A stretch of 64,000 bases of DNA from Eledone cirrhosa (lineage: Eukaryota). How positions within the stretch are numbered: the first letter of the stretch is position 1; each line of letters opens with the position of its first letter. A program made the position numbers and the translations under genes. The notes below the pieces were generated by a model. That model was not told the origin of the DNA. It saw nothing but the letters and a program-made list of their open reading frames with translations, and did not search any database. The stretch is taken from positions 341,124,001 through 341,188,000 of the forward strand of contig OZ024742.1 in assembly GCA_964016885.1 (NCBI GenBank), read 5' to 3'. This document shows, piece by piece, positions 37,953 to 64,000 of the stretch.

Positions 37953-38124
37953 TATTAAAATAACAGATTAAAGTTCAGGCAAAGAATCGGTGCTTTCACT
38001 CTTTGCTTAAACTTTAATCTGTTATTTTAATAGGATATTTCCTCTACGGTTCTTATATATTTGATATATCTTTATCCTTATCAAGCCTGCTTTGGATTTT
38101 AGTCTTCACATTTATCATTATTAC
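37953..38124 (+). mobile_element. short foldback insertion in (TA)n (arms 37953-37985 / 38000-38032, plus a 92-nt tail)
   Basis: TATTAAAATAACAGATTAAAGTT...GCAAAGA is mirrored by TCTTTGC...AACTTTAATCTGTTATTTTAATA. TA runs flank both sides. Confidence 0.7.
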
Positions 38125-38147
38125 TATATATATATATATATATATGT

Positions 38148-38584
38148 ATACGATATTCACAAATGGAAACTATATTTATAAAACCATATTTATTTCATTA
38201 TACATATTTCAAGGAAACCAAGTTAAATTATGGTGTGCTTTCATCAAATAGAATATAATATAGAGCAGTTTTGTAAATAAATATTGACATACCCTTAAAG
38301 AATGCAACCATTACTGTTGGAAGCTCCCGGATAATGGTTGCATTCTTTAAGGGTATGTCAATATTTATTTATAAAACTGCTATATATTATATATTATCTG
38401 ATGAAAGCACACCATAATTTAACTTGGTGTCCTTGAAATATGTATAATGAAATAAATATGGTTTTATAAATATAGTTTCCATTTGTTAATATCGTATTTT
38501 TACTCCAACAATTTGTTGAGTGCTTTATATCAGTTATAAAAATATTTGGTTGTTGTATCCCAACAATTTAAATAAAACCTTTAC
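38148..38584 (+). mobile_element. 5'-truncated, 5'-inverted Penelope-like pLTR fragment (arms 38148-38313 / 38332-38497, tail to 38584)
   Basis: 166-bp inverted repeat. Arm and tail are homologous to 45660-45910 of the GIY-YIG-bearing element (AAATGGAAACTATATTTATAAAACCAT; TACTCCA..GTTGAGTGCT.TATATCAGTTA). Confidence 0.85.
38394..38450 (+). ncRNA. minimal type I hammerhead ribozyme (Penelope pLTR type)
   Basis: TTAT-CTGATGA-[AAGCACACCA..TGGTGTCCTT]-GAAA-TATGTATA-ATGA. The minus-strand copy in the other arm has a core change (TTGATGA). Confidence 0.7.
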
Positions 38585-39391
38585 ATATATATATATATAT
38601 ATATATATATATATATATATATATATATATATATATATATATATTGAAACAAAATGAAAACGAAATTTCATTTCTCACTCTTAGTATGGCACTTACTTAA
38701 ATGTAAGTATGCATGTATACGTACATACATATATGTATACAGACGTACAGTAGCATGCACATATATATATATATATATACATATATACATACATATGCAT
38801 ACAGGTACACATACATATATGCACGTATCAGTTTAGCGGCGCTAACGTCGCTTTGTTCGTTTGTAAACAAACTGAACAGCCTGAATTTATGCCATACGGT
38901 GTTAAGGCAACCACGTCACCTTTTTGTTCAACACTGACACAGAAGCTTGTTAGCTATCATCAGCACCGTTTACCCATCTGCCAGATAGTTGAACGTTCGA
39001 AAGTATATACTTTCCTTATGAAAATTAACGGCTGAGCAGCCCAATTTGCATATTGAGTGAGTTAAATCGGTCAGGCATACCGAAAACGATAAATTGAAAC
39101 AAAATGAAAACGAAATTTCATTTCTCACTCTTAGTATGGCACTTACTTAAATGTAAGTATGCATGTATACGTACATACATATATGTATACAGACGTACAG
39201 TAGCATGCACATATATATATATATATACATATATACATACATATGCATACAGGTACACATACATATATGCACGTATCAGTTTAGCGGCGCTAACGTCGCT
39301 TTGTTCGTTTGTAAACAAACTGAACAGCCTGAATTTATGCCATACGGTGTTAAGGCAACCACGTCACCTTTTTGTTCAACACTGACACAGG

Positions 39392-39436
39392 AACGATGTA
39401 CTAGTTTCAAGCTTGTTAGCTATCATCAGCACCGTT
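39392..39436 (-). ncRNA. minimal type I hammerhead ribozyme, family A unit 2
   Basis: Minus strand reads AACGGTG-CTGATGA-T-AGCT-AACA-AGCT-T-GAAA-CTAG-TA^CATCGTT. This gives a 7-bp stem I, AGCT/AGCT stem II, palindromic ACTAGT stem III and a GUA cleavage triplet. Confidence 0.88.
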
Positions 39437-39509
39437 TACCCATCTGCCAGATAGTTGAACGTTCGAAAGTATATACTTTCCTTATGAAAATTAACGGCTG
39501 AGCAGCCCA

Positions 39510-39517
39510 ATTTGCAT
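39510..39517 (-). promoter_or_regulatory. octamer motif ATGCAAAT upstream of the hammerhead (present in every family A unit)
   Basis: ATTTGCAT on the + strand, 81 nt upstream of CTGATGA in the transcript sense. It sits at the homologous position in family B. Function is inferred. Confidence 0.5.
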
Positions 39518-39857
39518 ATTGAGTGAGTTAAATCGGTCAGGCATACCGAAAACGATAAATTGAAACAAAATGAAAACGAAATTTCATTTCTCACTCTTAG
39601 TATGGCACTTACTTAAATGTAAGTATGCATGTATACGTACATACATATATGTATACAGACGTACAGTAGCATGCACATATATATATATATATACATATAT
39701 ACATACATATGCATACAGGTACACATACATATATGCACGTATCAGTTTAGCGGCGCTAACGTCGCTTTGTTCGTTTGTAAACAAACTGAACAGCCTGAAT
39801 TTATGCCATACGGTGTTAAGGCAACCACGTCACCTTTTTGTTCAACACTGACACAGG

Positions 39858-60792: not shown

Positions 60793-61020
60793 ATATATAT
60801 ATATATATATATATATATATATATATATATATATATATATATATATATATATATATATATATATATATATATATATATATATATATATATATATAAATAT
60901 ATATATATAAATATATATATATATATATATATATATATATATATATATATATATATATATATATATATATATATATATATATATATATATATATATATAT
61001 ATATAAATATATATATATAT
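60793..61020. repeat. long (TA)n microsatellite
   Basis: Direct reading. It is one of more than 25 TA runs in the last 26 kb. Confidence 0.97.
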
Positions 61021-61506
61021 AGCGGCGATGAATTAGTTTAGCGAGGTTTTTTATATGAAATCGTGTGTCGAAACAGATATTGTTATACTTAGGGAGGGTC
61101 ATATACACTATACACACACGCAAACGTATGCGCAAAGAAGACAAAATAAAATAAACAAACAAGCAAATAAATAAATAAATATATAAACAGACTGAATAAA
61201 AAAATGGCGTAGACATACAACACAACAGGAGGAAAAAAATATAACACCACTGACGATGTTGCAGATGTGCAATGAAAGATTTATGTAAATTATGTAAACT
61301 AGATATATGTGTTTGTGTCTATATTGTATATGTATTATTTTTGACCGTCGGTCAGTCAATGGCAACATTGAGGACCGAGTAAGTTAGATCGCAGATATAT
61401 ATATATAAAAGACAGCGAGAAGCGAAAACCAACCAAACAGTGAGTGTGTTCTGTTATTAATTCTGGCAATATTACGCAAATATGACCCTCCCCAAGTATA
61501 ACAATA
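61021..61506 (-). mobile_element. truncated/inverted 3'-UTR copy of the adjacent Penelope element
   Basis: 61101-61506 is the reverse complement of about 61617-62030. 61077-61102 mirrors 61480-61506. Tail is 61021-61075. Confidence 0.85.
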
Positions 61507-61825
61507 TATATATATATAAATATATATAAATATATATATATATAAATATATATATATATATATATATAAATATATATATATATATATATATATATATATA
61601 TATATATATATATATATTGTTATATTTGGGGAGGGTCATATTTGCGTAATATTGCCAGAATTAATAACAGAACACACCCACTGTTTGGTTGGTTTTCGCT
61701 TCTCGCTGTCTTTTATATATATATATCTGCGATCTAACTTACTCGGTCCTCAATGTTGCCATTGACTGACCGGCGGTCAAAAATAATACAGATACAATAT
61801 AGACACAAACACATATATATAGTTT

Positions 61826-61875
61826 ACATAATTTACATAAATCTTTCGTTGCACATCTGCAACATCGTCAGTGGT
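61826..61875 (-). ncRNA. possible hammerhead variant in the Penelope 3' UTR (second copy 61246-61296, +)
   Basis: CA-CTGACGA-T-GTTGCA-GATG-TGCAAC-GAAA-GATTTATGTAAATTA-TG. The core and stem II are good; stem I is weak. Confidence 0.45.
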
Positions 61876-62142
61876 GTTATATTCATTGTTCCTCCTGTTG
61901 TGTTGTATGTCTACGCCATTTTTTTTTTTGTTCAGTCTGTCTATATATTTATTTATTTATTTGCTTGTTTGTTTATCTTATTTTATTTTGTCTTCTTTGC
62001 GCATGCGTTTGCGTGTGTGTATAGTGTTGTGTGTGATGTGTGACTAGTGTGTATAGTGTTGTGTCTGCTGGGTGACTAGTGTGTGTTTATGTGTTTGTGT
62101 ATGTATTTATTTATCTTATTTTATTTTATTTTATTTACTTAT

Positions 62143-63941
62143 TTATACTTCTCTTAGGTCAGTGTTGTTTGTTTGGGTGTTGTTGTTGTTCCACTCATTC
62201 TTTCTGTTTAGCTTTGGTCTTCTAATTTCTATTTCACTGGCCTCTCTGATTTGCCTATCTGCTGGGTCATTCTTATGTTTAGATATTATTCTAATTTCTA
62301 TGTTGTCTATGTTACCGTCATGTTGTTGTCTAGCATGTTCGTATAGTACTGACCCGTTTTTTCGTCCTTTTAGTTCCCCCCAGTGTTGGTCTATCCTTTC
62401 ACCTATGCTACGAGCTGTCTCACCTATGTATGTTGTTGTCATGTTTCTGCAAGTACCCTCTGTACATCTTATGCTATAGACTACGTTTCTAGTTTTACAG
62501 TTTATCCGGGGGTTCACCTTACATATGATACATTTCCTATTAGTACAGTGGGTTTTCTTAAAAGGGTAGGTTTTGCTGATCAGGGATTTTATGGTGGTTC
62601 CTGGCTTTTCTACCACCTTTATTTTTAAGTGGGTCTTTCTCAGGGCCTTTCTACACTGGTTAGCTAATTTCCCTCCAGGGGTGGCGTCCACAAACATGAC
62701 ACTCTGATATCTCTGGTTGTCGTACCATGATGTGGCCTTCCCTATCTTATGTCTAGCCCTATCTAAGCTATTCCATGATTTGCTCCTGTATAGTGGGCAA
62801 ATTCCTTTCATGTCCAGTTCTATGAGGGTCTTATACTTTTCCATGGCTCCTTCGTATACTCTGACTCTGTCTCTTTGGTTGTAGCCAGAGAACTGCATGC
62901 GGTTGATGAAGTGTTGGATGTGTCCTTCCATTTCTGTTGGGTCGCACATGCTGGACACATTCTTCATCACTCGTACCAAATCTGCGATCAGAATATTAAA
63001 CTTAGCACTACTGGACATTGCTGAGTTTTTGAGTATCAGGTATTTGGAGGCCATGGGTTTAGCATAGTGTGAGTGGAGAATTTGGGCTCTCTCGTCTATA
63101 GTGTTAATCCAGAGTTCTGTGTCTAATACAGGTAGTCTATTGTTAGGGTGTTTGGAAGGGAAGTCTATAGTTACAGTTATACTCTGGTGTATGGAATTAG
63201 CTATCTGCTGGATGCTTTCCATCGTGCTACGTTCTAAATCAAACTTGTTAGTGCTCTCTAGTGGGGGTGTTCTTATAACTATATTGATATCGTCTACATA
63301 ACGAGAGTACATGATGAGGTCTAAGGAGCTTTTATTAAGGAGATCTTTAAGTCTCCTTTCCCACCATACCATGAAAAGGTTGGCAACATCACCAGCTATG
63401 CTGACGCCGATGGCTGCTCCCTCATTTTGGGTGTAGATTTTCTCATTGAACTTAAATATGTGGCCCTTTAGGGTAGTTTTGATACTAGCCCCTATTGCAT
63501 GTGCGACCATTTTTCTTACCTGATCAGTGTGTTGGGGGGTCCGTATAGCTTTGGTCCACCCAATCCACCTTCCTATGGGAGTCTTTTTAGCCATTGAGGT
63601 TATGGTGGGGGGTCTACCTCTTATAGGTCTACTAGGGCAGAAACATCTAAGGTCATGGCTGTCTAGGTAGTCAGTGTCGTAGGTAAGTCTAAGTAGGAGG
63701 CCCAGTTCGTCTGTGTCGACGTCGCAGAACTCCACCTCACTCTTAATGATCATCTCCACACATCTTTTCACAGCAAAATCAATGTTAATGGATGGGTACA
63801 GTGACACCACATCCATGCTGCCTATTATGCAGTTGGATAGGCTCCTGTTTTTGTTGCACTCACTGATTCTGCTGAGGAGGTCCTCTGTACTTTCACATAC
63901 ATCTGGGGACATCTTGATTATGGGGCGTATAACCATTGAAC
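62143..63941 (-). CDS. Penelope-like reverse transcriptase + GIY-YIG endonuclease (uninterrupted, 5'-truncated, about 600 aa)
   Basis: GSMDVVSLYPSI, QNEGAAIGVSIAGDVANLFM, YSRYVDD, LPVLD, HYAKP, a Cys-rich linker, then NVVYSIRC...YIGETARSIGERIDQH and REASEI..RPKLN. Confidence 0.95.
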
Positions 63942-64000
63942 CTGTGAAAAGATGTGTGGAGATGATCATTGAGAGTGAGGTGGAGTTCTGCGACGTCGAC

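What the first reader, a model, noticed from the sequence alone, without database searches (positions are those of the whole stretch)
37953..64000. Common insertion signature: inverted arm + direct arm + 55-92-nt unpaired tail in (TA)n, across unrelated families
Seen in at least 9 insertions, with approximate tails: 37953 (92), 38148 (87), family A (56), 42279 (89), 43223 (87), family B (73), 60450 (61), 60585 (79) and 61021 (55). The inverted copy always stops short of the 3' end by a similar distance, and in several cases the spacer is the continuation of one arm. Established: Penelope-like elements show 5' inverted pLTRs and short tails, and some target simple repeats. Inference: one Penelope-type integration mechanism generates all these palindromes, including the non-coding ones, so many apparent MITE-like foldbacks here are retro-products.
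Basis: partly seen in the sequence, partly recalled or inferred. Interest (0 to 1): 0.72.

Follow-up and report, generated by a model that had tools for sequence, protein, structure and literature searches.

The report
Penelope-type two-ended insertions mimic foldbacks
The hairpin-shaped repeats sitting in TA runs here are mostly head-to-head stubs of Penelope-type jumping genes and of their ribozyme-bearing non-coding relatives, a layout already described for this class, and their fixed ends suggest that both sides of one DNA cut likely copied the RNA from two set start points.

Summary
Observation confirmed: 9 of 9 insertions have an inverted arm, a direct arm and a 55-92-nt one-sided tail between TA runs. 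They are seven families, not nine: 38148~43222 and A~B are related. Eight of nine have Penelope-type or non-MITE evidence: a Hydra-clade endonuclease (43222, kin 38148), the 3' end of a Neptune-type RT-endonuclease element (61022), hammerhead arrays (A, B), reads showing that 37953 and 42190 belong to longer or tandem families with variable junctions, and in-window relatives sharing both ends (60584). 60391 is untested. Both ends recur within families while arm lengths vary, which fits no fixed-length MITE. The spacer continues the tail-less arm in 4 of 9, the tailed arm in 3, and is unresolved in 2; one extra copy has no palindrome. This favours priming from both cut ends at two RNA start sites; fold-back plus later deletion remains possible. 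The layout, TA targeting, two start sites and the retrozyme-Penelope link are published; the longer tails and the same footprint on retrozymes were not in what I read. The scan reported this before on other DNA of this genome (e1-8673709 and others).

The parts
37953..38124 (+). E1: tail-less inverted arm 37953-37985 continuing through the loop to about 38003, direct arm 38000-38032, tail 38033-38124; truncated copy of a longer, abundant family
   Evidence: loose ends at 38000 and 38003 give the family's upstream sequence, whose reverse complement matches the loop at 13 of 14 letters (read by eye)
38148..38584 (+). E2: Hydra-family stub; inverted arm 38148-38313, loop to 38331, direct arm 38332-38497 with hammerhead core at 38398, tail 38498-38584
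   Evidence: TA loose ends at 38497
38645..40638 (-). Family A: 466-nt hammerhead tandem array 38645-40482 (about 3.9 units; cores at 40361, 39895, 39429; the copy at 38963 lacks its second half), tail 38645-38700, inverted arm 40479-40638
42190..43187 (-). E4: tail 42190-42278, direct arm 42279-42707, loop 42708-42746, inverted arm 42747-43181; the tailed arm is about one unit of a roughly 550-nt head-to-tail repeat; only the first half of a hammerhead core (42233)
   Evidence: joints from 42728-42732 back to 42192-42199
43220..45910 (+). E5: 5'-truncated Hydra-clade element; inverted arm 43222-43975, spacer 43976-44964, direct arm 44965-45824 with hammerhead core 45728 (43318 on the minus strand), tail 45825-45910
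43989..44426 (+). C-terminal GIY-YIG endonuclease fragment with CxCx5C, CxxC before E and CxH motifs
46027..46091 (-). Tail-only relative of E8, joined to TA at the same far end
   Evidence: (83% over 59 nt)
46599..46672 (.). Relative of E8: tail-less inverted arm starting at TA within 1-2 nt of the E8 point, with a different junction and a direct stub cut by (AG)n
48118..49349 (+). Family B: inverted arm 48118-48242 (includes the 8-nt loop), 467-nt hammerhead array 48234-49349 (2.4 units; cores 48549, 49016), tail 49276-49349
   Evidence: (Rfam HH9 37.7 bits, below gathering score 52)
54822..55027 (.). Non-palindromic relative of E9: tail alone (54822-54878, minus) joined to a tail-less arm (54880-55027, plus), between TA runs
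60391..60550 (-). E7: tail 60391-60449, arms 60450-60496 and 60504-60550; orphan, family not tested
60584..60791 (+). E8: arms 60584-60643 and 60654-60714, tail 60715-60791; the direct arm reads like the 3' half of a hammerhead (GAAA, 6-bp stem, GUC near 60694)
   Evidence: fold
61022..61503 (.). E9: short tailed arm 61022-61104 (minus) and long tail-less arm 61105-61503 (plus); stub of the neighbouring coding element
61618..63941 (-). 5'-truncated Penelope-like element, RT plus C-terminal GIY-YIG (frame 62143-63941), tail-less 3' end at 61618; Neptune/Nematis type by motif
63942..64000 (+). Start of the inverted copy of that element (58/59 to 63715-63773), running off the window

Best explanation
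These foldbacks are truncated insertions of Penelope-like elements and of related non-coding hammerhead repeats, likely made when both ends of a cut TA run primed reverse transcription at two fixed start sites on the element RNA, 55-92 nt apart. Each end would grow a cDNA inward, one with the tail and one without; the two stop at variable lengths and would be joined head to head over a few shared bases. Overlapping lengths give a palindrome, the surplus of the longer cDNA gives the spacer, and non-overlapping ones give an insertion with no palindrome (54822). Shown: anatomy, fixed ends, variable junctions, family links. Inferred: the priming and joining steps, and which enzyme moved the non-coding families.
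For: Fixed ends within families: tail-less end shared by 61503, 61618 and 55027 and tail end by 61022 and 54822; both ends at homologous places in E2 and E5, 74-79% identical; 60584 with 46599 and 60791 with 46027; TA joined at 38497 in 49 and 29 contigs and in 5185 and 6119 RAD reads (such reads are not copy numbers). Variable junctions. Spacer belongs to the tail-less arm in E1, E2 (score 31 against 12 in the other orientation), B (33 nt with one mismatch) and E9, to the tailed arm in A, E5 and E4. Four shared bases at the junctions of A and B and E1. Enzyme links. The Anolis enzyme cuts and extends both strands, is predicted to be a dimer, and starts at two adjacent RNA sites that bound the tail (PMC11167929).
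Against: A fold-back palindrome that later lost an off-centre middle part over short repeats would also leave a spacer on the tail-less side, so the spacer test does not exclude it. One joint in E4 reads (42257/42275; 32 and 37 reads, 2 starts each) lies inside the tail and does not fit two fixed sites; a TA loose end at 42279 was not among the 24 rows shown (452 hidden). The tails share no common fold: only B is clearly structured (z -3.7), E2 and E5 marginal, six not. No excess pairing between TA and template at the ends (22 against 13.6 +/- 6.8, P 0.12, two rows misaligned). E7 is untested. No read was shown to span this window's own junctions. No RNA or enzyme assay.
Confidence: 0.6

Rival explanations
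1. Same Penelope-type origin, but the inverted arm comes from self-priming: one cDNA or an antisense template folds back and is copied until it stops short of the tail; later off-centre deletions reshape the middle.
For: Proposed from palindromes at inverted junctions in rotifer elements (PMC3846280, discussion). The junction of B lies in a hairpin of the unit, and E2's seems to. A, E4 and E5 fit simple fold-back.
Against: Needs a separate deletion for E1, E2, B, E9 and 54822, including B, whose arms are still 108/108 identical; joints with a direct arm starting inside the tail recur in reads (38003 to 38077 and 38090, 38323 to 38503); does not explain a fixed stop that matches a measured second start site in another clade.
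Confidence: 0.27
2. Some orphans (E7 above all, less so E4) are non-autonomous DNA transposons that target TA runs, with an unrelated flank taken for a tail.
For: DNA transposons that target TA microsatellites exist (MuTAnT, PMC4486113, abstract). E7 has no hammerhead, ORF or second copy in the window. Target duplications cannot be read inside TA runs.
Against: E1 and E4, the two orphans laid on reads, belong to longer or head-to-tail families with varying junctions; E7 has the same one-sided 59-nt tail and TA flanks as the rest.
Confidence: 0.09
3. The palindromes are assembly or long-read chimeras.
For: No laid read or contig was shown to bridge this window's own junctions; the arms of B are identical; X1-X3 may be the source sample.
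Against: Arms differ by up to 6% and by indels; ends are fixed across separate copies; the same end and strand-switch joints occur in Illumina reads of other samples (X8-X10).
Confidence: 0.04

Closest known systems
Insertions of endonuclease-bearing Penelope-like elements (PMC8557442 passages and Fig. 2 legend; PMC3846280 passages; PMC8969392 passage)
   Same: Inverted 5'-truncated copy at the 5' end, tail at one end only and at either end, tandem copies, TA targets
   Different: Tails here 55-92 nt against 30-40 bp reported; most units here are non-coding stubs
Hydra clade (PMC8557442, section read whole)
   Same: E5 endonuclease motifs, hammerhead, TA insertion; three full-length relatives looked at carry DKT and an RWK-like motif
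   Different: RT of E5 is truncated away; no tree built
Neptune/Nematis-type elements
   Same: RT with YVDD, Cx4CxxC linker, C-terminal GIY-YIG; best hit an Octopus vulgaris protein at 67%
   Different: Clade not resolved; no hammerhead recognised at its 3' end (a non-canonical core at 61250/61871 scored poorly)
Animal non-LTR retrozymes (PMC7229834 passages; bioRxiv 10.64898/2026.07.22.740005, abstract to discussion)
   Same: Non-coding tandem units of a few hundred bases with type I hammerheads; mobilisation by Penelope-like elements proposed from homology and co-occurrence
   Different: Here they carry the inverted-arm and tail footprint; the word 'inverted' does not occur in the main text of PMC7229834 and I saw no such description in the preprint parts read
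Poseidon of Anolis in vitro (PMC11167929, parts 1-2 of 4)
   Same: Two start sites bounding the tail, both strands cut and extended, AT-rich target
   Different: Other clade, shorter tail; does not assign one site to each DNA end
L1 twin priming (recalled, not read)
   Same: Both target ends prime; microhomology at the junction
   Different: In L1 the second primer lands at variable internal sites and gives an inversion without a duplicated arm

Membership tests
Endonuclease-bearing Penelope-like elements | RT plus GIY-YIG in one frame | tested here: met
   62143-63941: Pfam RVT_1 E 4.7e-5 (below cut-off), YVDD and YIGET motifs. For E5 only the endonuclease part remains
Endonuclease-bearing Penelope-like elements | Inverted truncated copy and one-sided tail | tested here: met
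   9 of 9
Endonuclease-bearing Penelope-like elements | Tail of 30-40 bp as reported | tested here: not met
   55-92 nt; a descriptive range in PMC8557442, not a formal criterion
Endonuclease-bearing Penelope-like elements | RT phylogeny | not tested
   no tree built
Hydra clade (E5, E2) | CxCx5C linker, CxxC and CxH motifs in the endonuclease | tested here: met
Hydra clade (E5, E2) | RWK and DKT motifs in the RT | tested here: inconclusive
   absent from the window; DKT in 3 of 3 full-length relatives fetched, RWK exact in 1 and RWQ/RWR in 2 (by eye); Pfam found no RT domain in them
Hydra clade (E5, E2) | Hammerhead in the terminal repeat; TA target | tested here: met
   (motif only; cleavage not assayed)
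Non-LTR retrozymes (A, B) | At least two tandem units with complete type I hammerheads, non-coding | tested here: met
   A 3 complete cores, B 2
Non-LTR retrozymes (A, B) | Self-cleavage and circular RNA | not testable with these tools
   no RNA holder listed
Non-LTR retrozymes (E4) | Tandem unit with a complete hammerhead | tested here: inconclusive
   head-to-tail joints present; only a half core found
MITE / TIR DNA transposon | Inverted repeats at both termini, constant length and spacer | tested here: not met
MITE / TIR DNA transposon | Target-site duplication | tested here: inconclusive
   TA runs on both sides hide any duplication

The most novel reading that the evidence does not exclude
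Hydra-type, Neptune-type and protein-free hammerhead RNAs all integrate by one obligate two-ended reaction: a dimeric enzyme opens a TA run and copies the RNA, often a small circle, from two family-fixed start sites, one per DNA end. The tail is then the distance between the two sites, most short foldbacks in TA runs of such genomes are misfiled retro-products, and the footprint is direct genomic evidence that Penelope enzymes move retrozymes.
Probability: 0.45. Interest if true: 0.65.

Novelty: new variant of a known kind. Interest (0 to 1): 0.45.

Why it matters
How Penelope-like elements make their inverted ends is stated as open (PMC8557442 discussion passage), and retrozyme mobilisation by them rests on homology and co-occurrence. 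A footprint shared by coding and non-coding families, with a countable test (which arm is longer in young copies), makes both questions testable from genome data. It also warns that hairpin finders may file such stubs as MITEs.

Tried and rejected
No whole genome is held, so no genome-wide table. No RNA holder listed. Rfam gave only sub-threshold microRNA matches to hairpins and TA-rich DNA, plus HH9 for B. Word-index search with the E5 endonuclease among longer proteins found nothing; the HMMER scan then found 4849 proteins at E 0.001 or better. Metagenome scans: E7 pattern 0 hits, E5 endonuclease 0 confirmed of 514 candidates. Scan look-ups by sequence for E4 and for E7+E8 and by nearby place were empty. 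A common tail sequence: of 55 pairs only E2-E5 and A-B were clear; E1-A and E5-B reached z 2.7, not convincing. A common tail fold: not found. TA-template pairing at the ends: not significant. Hammerhead cut site as an insertion end: rejected, the ends lie 48-303 nt downstream. Searches for prior description: (twin priming plus Penelope) listed 3 papers, none about these elements by title or abstract; subscription papers, Repbase reports, figures and supplements were not seen and may hold longer tails or this model.
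Full report
Setting. Bases 1-37698 are a 43-bp satellite. The rest is repeat-dense animal DNA with many TA runs. The best named relative of the long ORF is an Octopus vulgaris protein at 67% identity, so an octopus-like host is likely (inference). No whole genome is held.

Observation. A blind census found the pattern in 6 of 34 segments between TA runs, far above shuffles; it missed three of the nine because of how the segments were cut, and flagged four other segments. 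The nine belong to seven families: E2 (38148) and E5 (43222) are 74-79% identical, A and B match at 301 of 422 aligned bases. At 61022 the short arm bears the tail and the long arm lacks it.

What the families are. E5 holds a GIY-YIG fragment (Pfam E 0.01; Atlas first hits 0.96-0.97 in animal clusters) with the CxCx5C, CxxC and CxH motifs that PMC8557442 gives for the Hydra clade. I fetched three of its longest relatives (696-722 aa, of 150 listed); all carry the endonuclease at the C-terminus, DKT and a YRDD motif by eye, though Pfam did not call an RT in them. E2 and E5 carry hammerhead cores. E9 and the copy at 54822 are stubs of the element at 61618-63941, an RT plus C-terminal GIY-YIG frame with a Cx4CxxC linker, Neptune or Nematis type by motif; I built no tree. 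A and B are 466/467-nt tandem arrays with three and two complete minimal hammerheads, which fits non-LTR retrozymes. E8 has two relatives in the window, one tail only and one with the same tail-less end but another junction.

Orphans against reads. I laid 37955-38584 on two contig sets of one sample and two raw RAD-seq runs of another study, and 42190-42765 on four runs of the same kinds. E1 is a stub of a longer abundant family: loose ends at 38000 (58 and 59 contigs, 1640 and 1784 reads) give upstream sequence whose reverse complement is the loop. E1 and E2 together show 85 joints, 15 of them printed, at many positions. At 38497, the tail-less end of E2, 49 and 29 contigs and 5185 and 6119 reads pass into a TA run; RAD reads pile up on few loci, so these are not copy numbers. 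E4 reads show head-to-tail joints from 42728-42732 back to 42192-42199 in both contig sets and both read sets (few reads), so the family is a roughly 550-nt tandem or circular unit, and this copy's tailed arm is about one unit. Its strand-switch joints vary (three listed). Against my reading: one of them lies inside the tail, and a TA end at 42279 was not among the rows shown. No record was shown to bridge the window's own junctions.

Mechanism. Ends are fixed within families; arm lengths and spacers are not. If one cDNA carrying the tail folded back and copied itself, the spacer must continue the tailed arm. It does in A, E4 and E5, but it continues the tail-less arm in E1, E2, B and E9, and E7 and E8 are unresolved. 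The copy at 54822 is a tail joined to a tail-less arm with no overlap at all. Two cDNAs grown from the two ends of one cut, at two start sites, and joined over a few shared bases give all these forms. This fits the Anolis enzyme, which cuts and extends both strands and starts at two sites that bound the tail (PMC11167929). I wrote this reading down before seeing the scan's notes (input). It is not proven: fold-back followed by an off-centre deletion leaves the same trace, and self-priming is the published proposal (PMC3846280). The tails share no general sequence or fold, and pairing of TA with the template at the ends is not above chance.

Comparison with what is known. The inverted truncated copy, the 30-40-bp tail at either end and TA targeting are in PMC8557442 (passages and the Hydra section), PMC3846280 (passages and discussion) and PMC8969392 (passage). 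Hammerheads in these elements: PMC4209133 (part 1 of 4). Retrozymes as likely passengers: PMC7229834 (passages) and bioRxiv 10.64898/2026.07.22.740005 (parts 1-3 of 5). An Octopus vulgaris repeat annotation lists 31 recently active Penelope-like and 65 MITE families and has no mention of hammerheads (PMC13282606, passages). I saw no figures or supplements. Not found in searches or in the text read: tails of 55-92 nt, the footprint on retrozyme arrays, and a one-site-per-end model. L1 twin priming is recalled, not read.

Earlier scan notes. Several notes on other DNA of this genome reach the same reading, and two on other genomes describe the same stubs as a known pattern. They are not independent support. 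One led me to look for a shared tail motif: the same six letters stand 18-25 nt into the tails of E2, E5 and E8 (by eye), not in the others.

Verdict. Real, mostly explained as Penelope-type insertion (about 0.87 for that origin, summing both mechanisms), a new variant of a known kind. Interest 0.45; 0.65 if the two-ended reaction and its use by retrozymes hold.

Noticed in passing
window 1-37698: 43-bp satellite, about 880 copies, 94% matches, strong strand skew.
   Followed up: no
window 59540-59733 and 55044-55211: Two more hammerhead-bearing units beside TA runs; the distance from predicted cut site to 3' end is 135 and 134 nt, against 138 and 134 in E2 and E5, without clear sequence similarity.
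   Followed up: partly
window 55042-55503 and 56007-56148: A 22-nt direct repeat 440 nt apart suggests one hammerhead monomer; a relative at 56007 has an inverted 39-nt piece joined to a sense piece, perhaps a tenth insertion with a tail near 28 nt.
   Followed up: partly
window 37860-37924, 50789-50866, 51052-51126: A further small family with hammerhead-like cores ending 25-35 nt later at TA runs.
   Followed up: no
window 42190-42746: The tailed arm of E4 is almost exactly one repeat unit long.
   Followed up: partly
upstream of window 38000, in reads: The E1 family's upstream sequence holds a stem-loop followed by GAAA, with a non-canonical first half: a possible variant or decayed hammerhead (mixed consensus).
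   Followed up: no
window 41490-42032, 50231-50788, 52316-52515, 56481-56694, 57346-57497, 58017-58450: Many copies of a 170-190-nt dispersed repeat, SINE-like by recall, some in inverted pairs.
   Followed up: no
window 40962-41079: Imperfect palindrome without a TA run on its left, with a 29-nt relative at 40781-40809.
   Followed up: no
window 38943-38963: The last unit of family A has lost about 16 nt that include the second half of the hammerhead core.
   Followed up: no
window 54016-54207: 30-bp repeat encoding Asn/Asp/Gly-rich runs in a 130-aa frame.
   Followed up: no
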